A DNA stretch of 39,148 nucleotides from a virus (lineage: Duplodnaviria; Heunggongvirae; Uroviricota; Caudoviricetes). Shown here piece by piece: positions 8,657 through 13,551 of this stretch. Under the pieces are notes generated by a model. The model did no database searches. It saw only the letters and a program-made list of their open reading frames with translations, and was not told where the DNA came from. The translations under genes were made by a program, and so were the position numbers. Numbering within the stretch: position 1 is the first letter of the stretch; every line of letters starts with the position of its first letter. Where the stretch lies: IMG/VR virus record IMGVR_UViG_2534681836_000019, one strand, 5' to 3'.

Positions 8657-8986
8657 CTATGCCACGACCTGTTCAAAATCTGCCGTTATGGTTACCCACA
8701 ACGCCCCCACGCTTGCCGACCATTTACGACAAACCACCCTGATCGGCTTCCAGTCATAAGGTGGCGTCCACTGAAATGCGCGGACGCCACCGTGCCGTTC
8801 CAGAAAGGCTTTTAAAGATGGGTGTTCACATTTACGAACACGTATCGTCACGCTGTAAATCGACAACTGGTTATTCAGTCCCGCCGCACGACGCTGTTCA
8901 TAACCATCGCCCAGCTTCACTGTCACCACTTTCGGCTCTGATACCACATTCATATCCGGGCGCACTTTCCAGTGAAATGTCTCCAT
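8657..8986 (-). CDS. M: Minor tail protein M
   Basis: 109-aa ORF METFHWKVRPDMNVVSEPK..., same length as lambda M; position between H and L. Confidence 0.9.
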   Translation of the reverse strand: METFHWKVRPDMNVVSEPKVVTVKLGDGYEQRRAAGLNNQLSIYSVTIRVRKCEHPSLKAFLERHGGVRAFQWTPPYDWKPIRVVCRKWSASVGALWVTITADFEQVVA

Positions 8987-11900
8987 TACCGATATGCTCC
9001 ACTTAACCGACCACCATCACGGGCCTGCTGTTGCATAAAGTCCGCTGCCGCTTTTTTCCCAAGGTCATAAACCACCTTCAGGGCAGCCGGACCTATCTGC
9101 CCGTTCGTGCCATCGTTATTGATCTCGATGTTGTACTGCGGGGCAAACATCGCCATACCTGAACCACCAATATCCGCCACAACCCCCAGCTTACCGTCAG
9201 CACCACGACGCAGTGGCAGAATGGCTTCAGGTCCAGCTTCCCCCATCACACCCGCGCCTTTTGCAAAAGCAAAAAACGTCGGACGGTTAACCACCGTGCC
9301 ACTGTAACGACTCAAATCAGCAGACTGATAAATCCCCCCATTGGCATTCAGGGAAAGGCTGCTGAGATCAAATCCCAGTACACTGCCAATCCCTTTTATC
9401 GATTTCATCATGGTTGCCTGCGCCAGGATTTTCGCCATATCTGACAGCACCGAAGAGGTGAAGGATTTGAAGTTGAGTTTGCCGGTAGTGACAAAAGTTG
9501 CCAGGCCATTTCCCATGTTGCTGAAGGCTGATGAGAACACCTGTTCTGCTGTTCCTGCCGTATTGTCTGCATCCACGGTAAAATCCTGAAATGCACGCAG
9601 GACTCCGTTTTTCCAGTTACCCTGCACAACTTCAAGCTGTTGCCAGTAACGGCGATTCTCATTCAGTTGTCGGTTCAGGCTCTCCGTCAGCGCCTGCTCG
9701 GCCTTTCTGTAGTCATCCGTGTTATATGTCCCTTTCTGCTCACTATCCCGCCTCAACTGCTCCAGCTGTTGCTGGTATTTCTGGCGAAGACTCAGTTGTA
9801 CCTGATATCGCTGCCGCTGCTGATCACCCATACCCACCGTGGCGATATCCAGGTCATGTTGCTGACGCTGAGCGCGCTCTTCTTCAGCCAGTTGACTGGT
9901 CAGCTGAATTGTTTTTTTCTTCAGATCGTTGAGTGCCGTTTGTTTCTGAAGCTCCTGCTGTTTTACATCCAGCAGCGTCAGTGCCTGCATCAGTTCATCT
10001 TTACGGGCCAGCACACTCTTTTCATCTGCCGTCAGTTTTTTCCCGTCCAGATCGCTGATGCGCTGCTGCAGAGCCAGAAGCTGTTTATGCGCTTCTGTCA
10101 TCTTTTCAGTGGCAATGCCTGCTGACTGTCTTGCAGCAGCAATCTGTCCTTCCACCTGTGCCTGTTGCTGACTGTACTGCAGCAATAACCGGGTGGCCTC
10201 ATCATTACGGGTTTCGCGTGTTTTTTTCTTACCGGATGCCAGGGCTTTCTCGTAACGTTCATTTTCACGTTGTATCGCCGCATCCCTGACAGCCTGGTCG
10301 GCGTACTGCATGGCATTAATACGCGCAATTTCACGCTGATGTCGTGCTGCTTCCGTTTCATTCATCCGGTTCAGTGCAGCATTTTCAGCATTACGTCGTT
10401 TCTGTTGCTCCTGATAATTCCGCTCTGCCTGCTCTTTTGCATCCTGCAAATCCTTCTGGCGTTTTTTCTCCTGAAGATCGTTAAGACGCTGCTGATCGTA
10501 TTCAACCTGAGAAGATGATGCCGTCCAGGGGAGTCTTTTCGCCCGCGACACTTTCTCCTGTAAAGCGGTAATCTGTTCATCCAGCGAGTCTTCACGACCA
10601 ATATTCATGGCCGCATCCCAGAAACGACTCCACAAATCAGACAGATACTTCAGCGTACTGCCAAGCGCATTGAGGTTATTATCAATATCCGCAGTACGCC
10701 GACCGGTTTCCTCTGCCAGTGCAGACATGGCTATCCGTGCAGCATCACTGGACCGTCCCTGATCCCCAAGGACACGTATCTGCTCAAGCTGAGTGGCAGT
10801 AAGAAAATGCAGCTCATTGTCCAGAGCCTTCGCGGCATTTACAGGATCATCCTTCAGCCGCTTAAACTGATTTATGGTATCGCTGACCGACTGGCCAACC
10901 GATCGCTCCATCTGTGCGGCAGCTCTCGCCACCATACCGATATCGTTTCCACGAAATGCACCACTCCCCACCACCTGCGCCAGCGCACCGGCTGCAGCAT
11001 GTTGCGTGATACCATTCCCGGAAATAGCACGACTGAGCGTCCACAGCTGCCCGGCAGTGACTCCGGCATAATGCCCCGTCAGCGACAACTGGCGGTTAAA
11101 TTCTTCCCCCTCCTTCTGACCGTCATACCAGGCTTTACCCAGACCATAGACGGCCGCGGCAATACCGCCAATAACCCCGCCAAGCATCATGCCTTTCGGT
11201 GACATCAGTGTGTCTATCCATCCGGCACGGTTAGCCAGCGTTATCCCGGATCCCCTCAGCGCCCCTAAATTGCCGCGGGCCAGTTCACCTATCAGAACGC
11301 CTATCTCCTGGCGGGCTGCTGCACTTTTCAGACCCAGCGAATGCGTGGCTTTTCCTGCCTGCTCCATTTTGCGGATATACACTTCTGCAGCACTGCTTAC
11401 CCCCAGCTGGGCTGCCTTGGCACGAAGCAACTCAGAAGATGAAAGATTCTGGCGGGTTGCCTGCTCTTTAAGCTGACGGATAAACGCCACTTTCTGTCGG
11501 GTAGCCTCTTCCTCAGCCTGTGTAAGAACACGGGTTTTCGCAGTAACCTCAGAAATCAGCGCCAGATAATCCTGCTGACCAATCCCGCCACTGTTTCTGG
11601 CCTGTCGGATCTGCTGCTGAATACGCTGTAATTCCTGCAGCCCCGCACTGGCCTGTTTCACACTGTCAATCTGACGATAAAACGCAGCAGCCGCTTTATC
11701 CTGAGCCTCCGCCAGAGCCATGGCCTGCGCCTGTTCCTCGCACATTTTCTGGCTCAGCGCCTCCATGCGCTGGCGGGTTTTCTCCACCTCGCGGGCCATG
11801 CGTTCATGAGCCTGTGCGTTCTTCTCCACCGTCTGCGCATGGACGGATGCGGCTGTTGCAGCCGAAGAAGTCGCCTGCGTTGTCTGCCGGGCGGCCTGAG

Positions 11901-12081
11901 TCTGACGCTCCATAAAACGCTGCATACGGGCAGACGACCGTTCTGCATCGCTGGCGGCACCATTCAGAAGGTTTTTGATACGGGGAATTTCATTTTTAAA
12001 CTCTGCCGCATCAATCCCCAAATCAATGACCAGGTTGGCTATCTGGTCCATAACGCACACCTCCGGAAATACCTTCCCCAA
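8986..12081 (-). CDS. H: Tail tape measure protein H (start possibly at Met11, coordinate 12051)
   Basis: 1031-aa ORF, coiled-coil-rich (many Q/E/R/A), C-terminus INNDGTNGQIGPAALKVVYDL...GGRLSGAYR resembles the lambda H C-terminus; follows G/T. Confidence 0.9.
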   Translation of the reverse strand: MGKVFPEVCVMDQIANLVIDLGIDAAEFKNEIPRIKNLLNGAASDAERSSARMQRFMERQTQAARQTTQATSSAATAASVHAQTVEKNAQAHERMAREVEKTRQRMEALSQKMCEEQAQAMALAEAQDKAAAAFYRQIDSVKQASAGLQELQRIQQQIRQARNSGGIGQQDYLALISEVTAKTRVLTQAEEEATRQKVAFIRQLKEQATRQNLSSSELLRAKAAQLGVSSAAEVYIRKMEQAGKATHSLGLKSAAARQEIGVLIGELARGNLGALRGSGITLANRAGWIDTLMSPKGMMLGGVIGGIAAAVYGLGKAWYDGQKEGEEFNRQLSLTGHYAGVTAGQLWTLSRAISGNGITQHAAAGALAQVVGSGAFRGNDIGMVARAAAQMERSVGQSVSDTINQFKRLKDDPVNAAKALDNELHFLTATQLEQIRVLGDQGRSSDAARIAMSALAEETGRRTADIDNNLNALGSTLKYLSDLWSRFWDAAMNIGREDSLDEQITALQEKVSRAKRLPWTASSSQVEYDQQRLNDLQEKKRQKDLQDAKEQAERNYQEQQKRRNAENAALNRMNETEAARHQREIARINAMQYADQAVRDAAIQRENERYEKALASGKKKTRETRNDEATRLLLQYSQQQAQVEGQIAAARQSAGIATEKMTEAHKQLLALQQRISDLDGKKLTADEKSVLARKDELMQALTLLDVKQQELQKQTALNDLKKKTIQLTSQLAEEERAQRQQHDLDIATVGMGDQQRQRYQVQLSLRQKYQQQLEQLRRDSEQKGTYNTDDYRKAEQALTESLNRQLNENRRYWQQLEVVQGNWKNGVLRAFQDFTVDADNTAGTAEQVFSSAFSNMGNGLATFVTTGKLNFKSFTSSVLSDMAKILAQATMMKSIKGIGSVLGFDLSSLSLNANGGIYQSADLSRYSGTVVNRPTFFAFAKGAGVMGEAGPEAILPLRRGADGKLGVVADIGGSGMAMFAPQYNIEINNDGTNGQIGPAALKVVYDLGKKAAADFMQQQARDGGRLSGAYR

Positions 12082-12352
12082 GATGCATCAGTTCTTCGTC
12101 CGTTCGCTCCGGTATCCCGTTCTCTTCCGGTAAAAGGCTGAAATCAGCCACCGCAGCATCACTGCTGCCGGACACCATTCTCACGATCAATGCCTTCAGC
12201 GAGGCAAACTGCGCATCCATCCACACATCACTGAAGCTCTGCATCCGGAAATAATCGCCCCACTCACCAAGCTCAGTGGCCGACATTTCCGACAGCATCC
12301 GCCGCCAGTCTGCCCGCCGGAACTCCCGGGCAAGCCGCATGACAAACTGCAT
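12023..12352 (-). CDS. T: Tail assembly chaperone T frame (expressed as G-T fusion by -1 programmed frameshift)
   Basis: ORF in the -1 frame relative to G, open only from just upstream of the G stop; geometry matches lambda G/G-T. Confidence 0.8.
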   Translation of the reverse strand: MQFVMRLAREFRRADWRRMLSEMSATELGEWGDYFRMQSFSDVWMDAQFASLKALIVRMVSGSSDAAVADFSLLPEENGIPERTDEELMHLGEGISGGVRYGPDSQPGH

Positions 12353-12360
12353 TTCCCGCG

Positions 12361-12750
12361 TCAGGACTTTTCCGGCGTCAGCGCCTCATGCTCATCATCC
12401 CCGGCATTATCAATGGCCCCCATACCGCTCAGCGACAGAACCATCTCCGCCCCCGCCCCCAGGGCATCATACGACCATGTTGTAATAACGGATGCGCAAA
12501 GCGTCTCTACATCCTTAGACTGATCCGCATTCCACAGTGAGCGGGAAACCAGCCAGGCATTGATATCCATCCCCATCCGCAGAAAAGCAATCTGTCGTTC
12601 AGCCTCCGGCAGTTCTCCCTCCCCGGCATCAAACTTTGCCGTTCGCTGCTGAACAAACGCCAGATATTCAATTCTCTGCAGCCCGGACAGCTCACTGAGC
12701 ACCACGGACTGTTTTTCATAATTAAACGTGTCCTGTTTCAGAAACATCAT
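12361..12750 (-). CDS. G: Tail assembly chaperone G
   Basis: 129-aa ORF MMFLKQDTFNYEKQSVVLSELSGLQRIEYLAF..., resembles lambda G; directly downstream of V. Confidence 0.85.
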   Translation of the reverse strand: MMFLKQDTFNYEKQSVVLSELSGLQRIEYLAFVQQRTAKFDAGEGELPEAERQIAFLRMGMDINAWLVSRSLWNADQSKDVETLCASVITTWSYDALGAGAEMVLSLSGMGAIDNAGDDEHEALTPEKS

Positions 12751-12807
12751 GTTCTACACCTGCAAAAAAGCCCCGGATAACCGGGGCAAATGATGAGTAT
12801 CGTCCTG

Positions 12808-13551
12808 TTAACCTGCGGCGCTGACAGTCACCGCAGCCACAGCCACAAAATTCCCGTCAGCGGTCATGCCCACAATGCTGACGCTGCCCTGCTTCACGCC
12901 TTTCACCGTGGCCACAAGCCCGTTCAGGGTCACCGTGGCAGTCTGTGGATCTGACGAATGCACACTGATCGCTTTGTCACTGGCTCCGTCAGGTTTTACT
13001 GTAAAGGTCAGCGTGGTGGTTGCTCCCACATTGACACTGGCAGATGCCGGTGCCACCGTCAGCCCGGTAACGCCCACGATTTCAGTGCCTTCCTCTGCCA
13101 GATACGGACGCCCCACACCGCTGATTTTCACTGTGCGGGTCATCACGTCTTTTGAGGCAATGGTTTTACCCAGTGAACTCAGCCAGCCACGGAAAACATC
13201 AACAGTACCGTTGGGATATTTGATACGAAAAGCGCAGACTTCACCGGAGTCGAACAACTGAACCAGTTTTTTCTGCCCGCTGTCCCCCGGACGCCAGGCC
13301 AGCGTCGCCGAAGTATCACCGACTGATTTCTGCCCCTGGGTTGTCGTTTTCCAGTCTGCATCTTCATCATCGAGATAAGTGTCATCTTCTGCATCAGCGG
13401 TCATTTCGCCAGGTTGCAGATCCTTCACCATCGCAAGACGCAGCCAGTCAGTGTCCGATAAAGGGTTCGCAAACGCATCGCCCTTGCCGGTATACATCCA
13501 GAACGTCGTTCCCGCACCTTTCGTTTTTGCCAGTGGATTTGGTGTGGTCAT
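12808..13551 (-). CDS. V: Major tail protein V with C-terminal Ig-like domain (longest ORF starts at 13626; start at Met26 more likely)
   Basis: MTTPNPLAKTKGAGTTFWMY...LDDEDADW...FPNGTVDVFRGW matches lambda V as recalled; Ig-like C-terminal region. Confidence 0.9.
   Translation of the reverse strand: MTTPNPLAKTKGAGTTFWMYTGKGDAFANPLSDTDWLRLAMVKDLQPGEMTADAEDDTYLDDEDADWKTTTQGQKSVGDTSATLAWRPGDSGQKKLVQLFDSGEVCAFRIKYPNGTVDVFRGWLSSLGKTIASKDVMTRTVKISGVGRPYLAEEGTEIVGVTGLTVAPASASVNVGATTTLTFTVKPDGASDKAISVHSSDPQTATVTLNGLVATVKGVKQGSVSIVGMTADGNFVAVAAVTVSAAG

What the first reader, a model, noticed from the sequence alone, without database searches (positions are those of the whole stretch)
12352..12380. 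G/G-T programmed frameshift window with a non-canonical slippery heptamer
The T frame is -1 relative to G and opens only 25 nt before the G stop, so the shift must occur within GGCGCTGACGCCGGAAAAGTCC. The only slippery candidate is G GAA AAG (12367-12373), not lambda's G GGA AAG. After the shift the P-site tRNA-Glu would pair with GGA, a middle-position mismatch. This is either a weaker or mechanistically different slip site, or a point difference.
Basis: partly seen in the sequence, partly recalled or inferred. Interest (0 to 1): 0.45.

Follow-up and report, generated by a model that had tools for sequence, protein, structure and literature searches.

The report
Ordinary lambda-family G/G-T frameshift site
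This is the usual place where a lambda-like prophage makes a small share of ribosomes slip back one base to fuse two tail-assembly proteins, and its "odd" slip sequence G GAA AAG turns out to be the commonest one in this gene family, so the finding is real but ordinary.

Summary
On the minus strand, gene G (12750-12361) ends ...CCG GAA AAG TCC TGA. The T frame is -1 and is open only from 12385, so both frames are open over 22 nt. The only slip-prone string there is G_GAA_AAG (12373-12367).

It is not a sequence error or a point deviation from lambda. The heptamer is unchanged in all 85 close relatives first sampled, and this overlap occurs in 1824 of 5426 complete E. coli genomes. It is also present in Gifsy-1, Gifsy-2, Fels-1, N15, phi80 and HK225. 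In 44 non-redundant lambda-type G/T clusters, 33 use GGAAAAG and only 3 use lambda's GGGAAAG, which sits nested inside GGAAAAG lineages. The N15 GenBank record already labels GGAAAAG as the slippery sequence.

Heptamer base 1 is a synonymous site. It matches the first base of the P-site codon in 43/44 clusters, against 8-16/44 at control codon junctions. That argues for lambda-like two-tRNA slippage, with tRNA-Glu re-pairing on GGA through a central G·U pair. I found no downstream structure or convincing upstream SD-like stimulator. Efficiency is unmeasured.

Verdict: already known; low interest.

The parts
12361..12750 (-). Gene G, the tail assembly chaperone (129 aa from the first ATG; RefSeq starts it at 12747). 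Stop TGA at 12363-12361.
   Evidence: ORF list. Pfam PF06894 Phage_TAC_2, E=2.8e-40. NCBIfam TIGR01674 phage_lambda_G equivalog, E=8e-56.
12367..12373 (-). Slip site G_GAA_AAG. Zero frame: GAA (12372-12370) and AAG (12369-12367). -1 frame: GGA (12373-12371) and AAA (12370-12368).
   Evidence: Sequence read. Homologous position to lambda G_GGA_AAG and N15 G_GAA_AAG. Invariant across 33 of 44 clusters.
12364..12385 (-). The only stretch where both the G frame and the T frame are open (22 nt). The shift must happen here.
   Evidence: Three-frame translations; script.
12386..12388 (-). TGA that closes the -1 (T) frame upstream of the overlap.
12023..12367 (-). T-frame segment read after the shift: 114 codons from GUC at 12367-12365, then the stop at 12025-12023. 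With G codons 1-128 it gives a 242-aa G-T fusion with the junction ...TPEK|VLTREMQF...
   Evidence: Translation. Pfam PF06223 Phage_tail_T. NCBIfam TIGR01715 phage_lam_T equivalog, E=4e-40. Two-piece tblastn matches of the fusion to phage genomes.
8986..12051 (-). Context: tape measure gene H, overlapping the end of T.
   Evidence: TMP_2, Tape_meas_lam_C.
12808..13551 (-). Context: major tail tube gene V with a C-terminal Big_2 domain, upstream of G.
12770..12787 (-). Context: terminator-like G+C hairpin followed by T6, between V and G.
   Evidence: The same place is annotated as a rho-independent terminator in mEp460, Ayreon and N15.

Best explanation
This is the programmed -1 ribosomal frameshift site of a lambda-type tail assembly chaperone pair, G and G-T. 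Most ribosomes read CCG GAA AAG UCC and stop at UGA, giving G. A small fraction slips back one base on G_GAA_AAG, with tRNA-Glu in the P site and tRNA-Lys in the A site. tRNA-Lys (anticodon mnm5s2UUU) moves from AAG to a fully cognate AAA. tRNA-Glu (anticodon mnm5s2UUC) moves from GAA to GGA, keeping the first and third pairs and forming G·U in the middle. Reading continues at GUC CUG ACG..., giving the 242-aa G-T fusion. By homology with lambda, its T part would recruit the tail tube protein to the G-coated tape measure.

Shown here: the geometry, the homology, the conservation of the heptamer including its synonymous first base, the absence of a conserved T start codon, and the absence of a conserved RNA stimulator.

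Inferred: that the fusion is made, that the slip involves both tRNAs, and that the frequency is low (a few per cent or less).
For: Gene identities:
- G and T are equivalog-level matches to lambda G and T and lie between V and H.

Position and conservation of the heptamer:
- T is open in the -1 frame only from 22 nt before the last G sense codon.
- The heptamer is at the position homologous to lambda's proven site.
- GGAAAAG occurs in 33 of 44 non-redundant clusters across Enterobacterales, while flanking third codon positions vary freely.
- Heptamer base 1 is the wobble base of GCG, CCG, CTG, TTG, ACG or GTG. It is G in 41 of 42 clusters whose P-site codon starts with G, against an expected 0.36 from the same genes. 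Base 1 equals base 2 in 43/44 clusters, against 8-16/44 at control codon junctions.

No independent start for T:
- The ATG that annotators use as the T start (12352) is present in only 2 of 44 clusters; most have CTG there (column 21).

Prior annotation and literature:
- The N15 GenBank record marks GGAAAAG as 'slippery sequence for -1 translational frameshift'. The Gifsy-1 and Gifsy-2 records describe T as made by frameshifting.
- A_AAG is the most shift-prone tetramer in E. coli (PMC4066793).
- G_GA-type P-site motifs are recognised intermediates between hexamer and heptamer sites (PMC5009743).
- Lambda needs only about 4% G-T (PMC3296357).
Against: - No protein evidence for G-T from any phage with this heptamer was found.
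- In a purified E. coli system AUG GAA AAG gave mainly 0-frame product at all EF-G concentrations and was used as the 'less slippery' control (PMC6924986).
- No stimulator was found that might compensate. Downstream folding is no better than shuffles (z = -0.15). The consensus structure of 13 relatives is only -4 kcal/mol. The upstream GAGG is unremarkable: -5.6 kcal/mol, and 30% of same-size windows through the same G gene pair with the anti-SD at least as well.
- Even G_GGA_AAG gave only 0.28% in a reporter without stimulators (PMC4066793, Table S3), so native context matters in ways not captured here.
- The clusters are related, so the binomial P value overstates their independence.
Confidence: 0.8

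Rival explanations
1. Single-tRNA slippage. Only tRNA-Lys slips on A_AAG, either in the A site or in the P site with UCC in the A site. GAA merely supplies the A, as in the NNA_AAG 'hexanucleotide' sites of IS elements. tRNA-Glu does not re-pair.
For: A_AAG is the best tetramer in E. coli: 5.6% with the IS3 pseudoknot (PMC4066793). Hexanucleotide NNA_AAG sites are known (PMC5009743). Peng et al. treat tRNA-Glu on GGA as non-cognate. One cluster (Morganella, A_GAA_AAG TAA) lacks the G at base 1, and there the stop codon follows the heptamer directly.
Against: Base 1 would then be free to vary, but it is G in 41/42 clusters against 0.36 expected, across six different preceding codons. Without a stimulator, tetramers are at background, about 0.15%, and no stimulator was found here.
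Confidence: 0.15
2. T is translated on its own from ATG 12352, as drawn in RefSeq and in the mEp460 record, so no frameshift is needed.
For: An ATG exists at 12352, and PGAP and GenBank annotate a 109-aa 'tail assembly protein T' from it.
Against: That ATG is present in only 2 of 44 clusters; Gifsy-1, Fels-1 and most others have CTG there (column 21). The only SD-like bases (GGGA) lie 2 nt from the ATG. The T frame stays open upstream exactly as far as the heptamer in every relative, and the T-frame residues between the heptamer and that ATG are conserved. In lambda, gpGT is made by frameshifting at the homologous site (Levin et al. 1993, as cited in PMC3296357); that T is never made as a free protein is from my memory of Levin et al.
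Confidence: 0.03
3. The heptamer is a sequencing error or a decayed site in a defective prophage, and G-T is no longer made.
For: A few IMG/VR relatives (L006-L008) do carry indels in G or T.
Against: The window is 100% identical over 801 nt to a finished chromosome. The heptamer is unchanged in all 85 relatives first sampled, and the same overlap is 97.8-99.5% identical in the isolated phages mEp460, Tritos, HannyBb, Ayreon, phi458 and the PhiR phages. 1824 of 5426 complete E. coli genomes hold this overlap at 95% identity or more.
Confidence: 0.01
4. RNA polymerase slips on the A run and produces a -1 mRNA.
For: None specific.
Against: The run is only four A's. Known bacterial transcriptional slippage needs much longer homopolymers (my recollection of the literature reviewed in PMC5009743; not checked in the passages read). 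The conserved G at base 1 and G at base 7 have no role in that model.
Confidence: 0.01

Closest known systems
Phage lambda G / G-T -1 frameshift (Levin, Hendrix & Casjens 1993; Xu, Hendrix & Duda 2004, 2013, 2014; as cited in PMC5009743 and PMC3296357)
   Same: Homologous G and T genes in the same V-G-T-H order. T is in the -1 frame. The slip site is at the homologous codon pair, with Lys AAG in the A site. No evident RNA stimulator. The role expected is to set a high G:G-T ratio.
   Different: The P-site codon is GAA (Glu) rather than GGA (Gly), so re-pairing gives a central G·U pair rather than a third-position G·U pair. The G stop lies one codon after the heptamer rather than five. T lacks lambda's C-terminal extension (114 vs about 140 residues).
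Phage N15 genes 14/15 (NC_001901, misc_feature 10027..10033 'slippery sequence for -1 translational frameshift'); also phi80, HK225 and mEp213
   Same: Identical heptamer G_GAA_AAG at the same position in homologous genes.
   Different: About 35% protein identity to the window's G-T. The preceding codon is GCG rather than CCG. The stop is five codons downstream, as in lambda.
Gifsy-1, Gifsy-2 and Fels-1 prophages of Salmonella
   Same: Closest diverged relatives (54-62% aa identity). Same CCG GAA AAG xCC TGA arrangement. The Gifsy records note expression by translational frameshifting.
   Different: The overlap is 28 nt rather than 22. There is no ATG at the position annotated as the T start in E. 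coli.
G_GA-type shift sites of eukaryotic RNA viruses (insect-specific flaviviruses, dianthoviruses, umbraviruses, mesoniviruses), listed in PMC5009743
   Same: X_XX is G_GA, so the P-site tRNA re-pairs on GGA with the central position not Watson-Crick.
   Different: Different P-site and A-site codons, eukaryotic ribosomes, and usually strong downstream RNA structures.
A_AAG tetramer and NNA_AAG hexamer sites of IS3-family elements (Sekine 1994; Licznar 2003; Sharma 2014, PMC4066793)
   Same: They rely on the shiftiness of E. coli tRNA-Lys on A_AAG.
   Different: Those sites depend on pseudoknot or hairpin stimulators. Here none was found, and the base 5' of the P-site codon is under selection.

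Membership tests
Lambda-type tail assembly chaperone G/G-T with programmed -1 frameshift | The upstream ORF is a gpG homologue lying between the major tail gene and the tape measure gene. | tested here: met
   PF06894 and TIGR01674 equivalog matches. Gene order is V (12808-13551), G, T, H (8986-12051), all on the minus strand.
Lambda-type tail assembly chaperone G/G-T with programmed -1 frameshift | The downstream ORF is a gpT homologue in the -1 frame, overlapping the 3' end of G, with no conserved start codon of its own. | tested here: met
   PF06223 and TIGR01715 matches. The overlap is 22 nt. The annotated ATG is present in only 2 of 44 clusters.
Lambda-type tail assembly chaperone G/G-T with programmed -1 frameshift | A slip-prone sequence lies in the overlap, at the position of lambda's G_GGA_AAG. 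| tested here: met
   G_GAA_AAG at 12373-12367. The Lys is invariant in the alignment. Ten T-frame codons separate it from the LARE motif, as in lambda.
Lambda-type tail assembly chaperone G/G-T with programmed -1 frameshift | A G-T fusion protein is made at a few per cent of G and is required for tail assembly. | not testable with these tools
   Needs a protein or reporter assay. No published measurement for a GGAAAAG phage was found.
Canonical X_XXY_YYZ slippery heptamer | The first three bases are identical, so the P-site tRNA keeps its two non-wobble pairs after the shift. | tested here: not met
   The bases are G, G, A. tRNA-Glu on GGA has G·U at the second position (sequence; anticodon from established knowledge, as stated in PMC6924986).
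Canonical X_XXY_YYZ slippery heptamer | Bases 4-6 are identical, so the A-site tRNA re-pairs in the -1 frame. | tested here: met
   A_AAG: tRNA-Lys moves from AAG to AAA. These columns are invariant in 44/44 clusters.
Single-tRNA A_AAG tetramer / NNA_AAG hexamer sites | The base 5' of the P-site codon is irrelevant, because the P-site tRNA does not re-pair. | tested here: not met
   Base 1 is G in 41/42 clusters against 0.36 expected. Base 1 equals base 2 in 43/44 clusters against 8-16/44 at control junctions.
Stimulated bacterial -1 frameshift sites (dnaX, IS911, IS3 type) | A downstream hairpin or pseudoknot lies a few nt 3' of the slip site. | tested here: not met
   MFE -29.6 kcal/mol against a shuffle mean of -29.2 (z = -0.15). 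RNAalifold of 13 relatives gives -3.96 kcal/mol with negligible covariation. No Rfam match.
Stimulated bacterial -1 frameshift sites (dnaX, IS911, IS3 type) | An SD-like sequence lies about 6-17 nt upstream of the slip site. | tested here: inconclusive
   GAGG lies 10 nt upstream in the window (-5.6 kcal/mol to the anti-SD), but 30% of same-size windows through the same G gene pair with the anti-SD at least as well. N15 and phi80 have nothing there. Median percentile over GGAAAAG clusters is 0.26.

The most novel reading that the evidence does not exclude
G_GAA_AAG, not lambda's textbook G_GGA_AAG, may be the ancestral and preferred slip site of lambda-type G/G-T genes. It would work as a true two-tRNA site through a central G·U pair in the P site, without RNA stimulators. 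Both slipping tRNAs (Glu and Lys) carry mnm5s2U34. The G:G-T ratio of these very common prophages would therefore be tied to the host's 2-thiouridine (Tus/MnmA/IscS) state through both tRNAs rather than only tRNA-Lys as in lambda. That would give them a different set point and a different host dependence from lambda.
Probability: 0.3. Interest if true: 0.4.

Novelty: already known. Interest (0 to 1): 0.18.

Why it matters
For annotation: in this prophage type, which is present in about a third of complete E. coli genomes, T should be drawn as a ribosomal-slippage join with G at 12367, not as a separate gene from ATG 12352. For frameshifting biology the value is modest. The survey shows that the lambda family mostly uses a heptamer that in vitro work treats as a poor-slippage control. 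The synonymous first base is nevertheless under strong selection. A reporter measurement of G_GAA_AAG in its native context would be a cheap test of how much a central G·U pair in the P site costs.

Tried and rejected
- Sequence error or pseudogene: rejected.
- Independent T initiation: rejected on non-conservation of the ATG.
- Downstream stimulatory structure: looked for by single-sequence folding with shuffles, by RNAalifold on 13 diverged relatives with the stop one codon after the heptamer, and by Rfam. Nothing was found.
- Upstream SD-like stimulator: scored against the anti-SD and against the background of each G gene. It is not distinctive for the window and not shared by N15 or phi80, although it is strong in a few lineages (Pantoea, Symbiopectobacterium, Sodalis).
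- Heptamer abundance in the window: 13 observed against 6.7 expected. Uninformative by itself.
- Literature: four full-text searches for GGAAAAG or G GAA AAG with frameshift, slippery or phage terms and two for Gifsy, N15 or phi80 tail-chaperone frameshifting. They found only Peng et al. 2019 on this heptamer and no phage paper.
- Papers not held: Xu et al. 2004, Levin et al. 1993 and Licznar et al. 2003. What I say about their content beyond citations in held reviews is from memory.
- A second IMG/VR scan with the alignment returned only close relatives.

Full report
**1. What is in the sequence**

All genes around the finding are on the minus strand. The ORF at 12750..12361 (129 aa) matches Pfam Phage_TAC_2 (E=2.8e-40) and the NCBIfam equivalog phage_lambda_G (E=8e-56). 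The -1 frame downstream matches Phage_tail_T and the equivalog phage_lam_T (E=4e-40). Upstream lies a lambda-type tail tube gene V with a Big_2 domain (12808-13551). Downstream lies a 1021-aa tape measure gene H (8986-12051). This is the V-G-T-H block of a lambdoid prophage.

In the G frame the end reads GAG GCG CTG ACG CCG GAA AAG TCC TGA. The -1 frame is closed by TGA at 12388-12386 and then runs open to 12023. Both frames are therefore open only over 12385-12364, which is 22 nt, or 25 nt with the stop. Reading G to Lys128 and continuing at GUC (12367-12365) gives a 242-aa fusion with the junction ...EALTPEK|VLTREMQFVMRLAREF...

**2. Not an error and not a rarity**

- The 801-nt G-T region is 100% identical to a finished E. 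coli chromosome, and 1846 of 5426 complete E. coli genomes have a close match.
- A 51-nt probe centred on the overlap finds 1824 genomes at 95% identity or more.
- The region is 97.8-99.5% identical in the isolated phages mEp460, Tritos, HannyBb, Ayreon, phi458, cdtI and several PhiR phages.
- In the 85 related loci first fetched, the string CCGGAAAAG was present without exception. The only variants lay outside the heptamer.

**3. The heptamer in diverged relatives**

Gifsy-1, Fels-1 and Gifsy-2 share 54-62% protein identity and about 70% DNA identity with the window. All three read CCG GAA AAG xCC TGA, although their surrounding codons differ.

More distant homologues (33-38% identity) were compared at the same aligned codon pair:
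- N15, HK225, phi80 and mEp213 have GCG GAA AAG.
- Providencia phage PSTCR8lys has CTG GAA AAG TAG.
- Lambda and PhiR5_1 have GCG GGA AAG.
- Stx phages have TCA AAA AAG.

The Lys is invariant in the protein alignment. In both lambda and the window, ten T-frame codons separate it from the conserved [KR]LARE motif. The sites are therefore positional homologues.

The N15 GenBank record carries a misc_feature, 'slippery sequence for -1 translational frameshift', whose seven bases are GGAAAAG. The Gifsy-1 and Gifsy-2 records describe T as made by translational frameshifting.

**4. Survey**

I scanned one genome per GTDB species with an alignment of ten G-T fusions. After adding the phage loci I had 245 usable loci. 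These fell into 46 clusters at about 85% protein identity, or 44 after dropping two near-duplicates of the window clade.

| Heptamer at the homologous position | Clusters | Where |
|---|---|---|
| GGAAAAG | 33 | Escherichia, Salmonella, Citrobacter, Klebsiella, Enterobacter, Kluyvera, Kosakonia, Serratia, Proteus, Providencia, Sodalis and others |
| GGGAAAG | 3 | lambda; PhiR5_1 / E. albertii; Edwardsiella |
| AAAAAAG | 2 | Stx phages |
| GGCAAAA | 2 | Kluyvera genomosp. 1, Ewingella |
| GGTAAAG | 2 | Pantoea |
| GGGAAAA | 1 | Providencia rustigianii |
| AGAAAAG | 1 | Morganella |

In a neighbour-joining tree of the fusions, GGAAAAG is spread over the whole tree. The lambda and Stx group is nested inside GGAAAAG lineages. 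Lambda's textbook heptamer is thus a derived minority state, and the window carries the family's usual one.

**5. What the conservation says about mechanism**

Anchored on the heptamer, columns 4-6 (AAA) are invariant in 44/44 clusters. Column 7 is G in 41/44. Column 1 is G in 41/44, and two of the three exceptions are the A of A_AAA_AAG. The 0-frame third positions of upstream codons show no preference.

Column 1 is the synonymous third base of the preceding codon: GCG 14, CCG 9, CTG 6, TTG 2, ACG 1, GTG 1 and GCA 1 in the GAA_AAG group. In the same genes those codon families end in G only 28-54% of the time. The mean expectation is 0.36, against 41 of 42 observed. The naive binomial P is 1e-17, which ignores relatedness. 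A more cautious count is ten of eleven distinct codon/heptamer contexts.

Base 1 equals base 2 in 43/44 clusters, against 8-16/44 at seven control codon junctions. Selection on base 1 makes sense only if the P-site tRNA re-pairs in the -1 frame. For E. coli tRNA-Glu (anticodon mnm5s2U-U-C; established knowledge, and the pairing problem is stated in PMC6924986), the move from GAA to GGA keeps G-C at position 1 and A-U at position 3 and puts G·U at position 2. I therefore favour the same tandem slip as in lambda over a single tRNA-Lys slip.

The one cluster that breaks the rule (Morganella, GCA GAA AAG TAA) has the stop codon directly after the heptamer. There a P-site tRNA-Lys slip opposite a slow stop codon is plausible. 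That is one case and no more than a hint.

**6. T has no start of its own**

RefSeq and the mEp460 record draw T as a separate 109-aa gene from ATG 12352. In the anchored alignment that column is A in only 2 of 44 clusters; most have CTG (column 21). The only SD-like bases lie 2 nt from the ATG. The separate-gene drawing is an annotation convenience.

**7. Stimulators**

- The 77 nt downstream of the heptamer fold no better than shuffles (-29.6 against -29.2 kcal/mol, z = -0.15).
- RNAalifold over 13 diverged relatives gives -3.96 kcal/mol with negligible covariation.
- Rfam gives nothing above noise.
- Upstream, GAGG lies 10 nt from the heptamer. Its pairing to the anti-SD is -5.6 kcal/mol, and 30% of same-size windows through the same G gene pair at least as well. 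N15 and phi80 have no SD-like sequence there.

So, as I recall for lambda (Levin et al. 1993, not held here), the site appears to act without a dedicated RNA stimulator.

**8. How strong is it?**

This is unknown.
- In a purified E. coli system, AUG GAA AAG gave mainly 0-frame product at all EF-G concentrations. It served as the 'less slippery' comparison to G GGA AAG, and it did shift with EF-G domain-4 mutants (PMC6924986).
- In vivo, the A_AAG tetramer is at background without a stimulator and reaches 5.6% with the IS3 pseudoknot (PMC4066793).
- G_GGA_AAG gives 0.28%, 3.8% and 43% with no stimulator, the IS911 stimulators and the IS3 stimulator respectively (Table S3).
- Lambda makes about 4% G-T, and the ratio matters for phage yield (PMC3296357; PMC5009743).

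A site somewhat weaker than lambda's is thus compatible with the biology. The breadth of conservation shows that it is sufficient.

**9. Relation to what is known**

- The system is a member of the lambda G/G-T family on every feature I could test. Only production of the fusion protein could not be tested.
- The heptamer fails the strict X_XXY_YYZ definition at base 3. It belongs to the recognised class of intermediates in which X_XX is G_GA, listed for several eukaryotic virus groups in PMC5009743.
- The identical heptamer is annotated in N15.
- I found no open paper that measures G_GAA_AAG in a phage context, and I could not read Xu et al. 2004.

**10. Verdict**

It is the frameshift site, and the middle-position pairing issue is real. 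The 'point difference' option is refuted. The site is the family norm rather than a deviation, and a different mechanism is not indicated.
- Novelty: already known.
- Interest is low. The residual open point is quantitative: the in vivo efficiency of G_GAA_AAG, and its dependence on tRNA 2-thiolation, given that both slipping tRNAs (Glu and Lys) belong to the mnm5s2U34 group (PMC3296357).

Noticed in passing
window 12770-12787 (-), between V stop (12808) and G start (12750): Terminator-like hairpin GCCCCGG-TTAT-CCGGGGC followed by TTTTTT. The same spot is annotated as a rho-independent terminator in mEp460, Ayreon and N15. It probably lowers transcription of G, T and H relative to the abundant tube protein V.
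   Followed up: partly
window 12350-12352 (-), ATG annotated as the T start: RefSeq/PGAP and the mEp460 and Ayreon records annotate T as a free-standing gene. None of the closest records uses a ribosomal-slippage join. The ATG is present in only 2 of 44 clusters.
   Followed up: yes
L144 and L163 (Pantoea latae and P. piersonii prophages), around locus position 900-960: These homologues use G_GTA_AAG, where the P-site tRNA-Val would have a central G·A mismatch. They carry a strong SD-like GGGGAGGA within 20 nt upstream of the heptamer (-11 kcal/mol to the anti-SD, below every background window of the same G gene). This may be a stimulator compensating for a poorer P-site re-pairing.
   Followed up: partly
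L107 and L108 (Morganella psychrotolerans prophages): This is the only cluster where heptamer base 1 differs from base 2 (GCA GAA AAG TAA). The stop codon follows the heptamer directly, as in the Proteus and Providencia group (G_GAA_AAG TAG/TAA).
   Followed up: partly
L149-L161 and L170-L174: Assemblies labelled Neobacillus, Oceanobacillus, Kitasatospora, Chromatium, Shewanella, Pseudomonas, Leeuwenhoekiella, Paenibacillus, Enterococcus, Marinifilum, Pseudoxanthomonas and Psychrobacter hold the same 64-nt G/T overlap sequence as lambda, many on contigs whose names give about 1x coverage. This looks like lambda DNA contamination. E. coli- and phi80-type prophage contigs also sit in MAGs labelled Bacillota (L096) and Geobacteraceae (L139).
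   Followed up: no
L006, L007, L008 (IMG/VR relatives): Single-base indels inside G or T break the frames outside the overlap. These are either draft-assembly errors or decaying prophages. The heptamer itself is intact in all three.
   Followed up: no
window 12385-12387 and 12377 (-); alignment columns -14 to -12 and -4: A Glu codon GA[GA] five codons before the Lys is kept in about 40 of 44 clusters. The second base of the codon two before the P-site codon is C in 38 of 44 clusters. These could reflect a protein-level constraint on the G tail, a weak SD-like element, or a nascent-peptide effect; I did not resolve which.
   Followed up: no
window, both strands: GGAAAAG occurs 13 times in the window against 6.7 expected from shuffles; only 1 of 100 shuffles reached 13. 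I did not check which copies are in the G_GAA_AAG frame of a gene, apart from the copy at 11349-11355 in H, which by hand calculation is not in that frame.
   Followed up: partly
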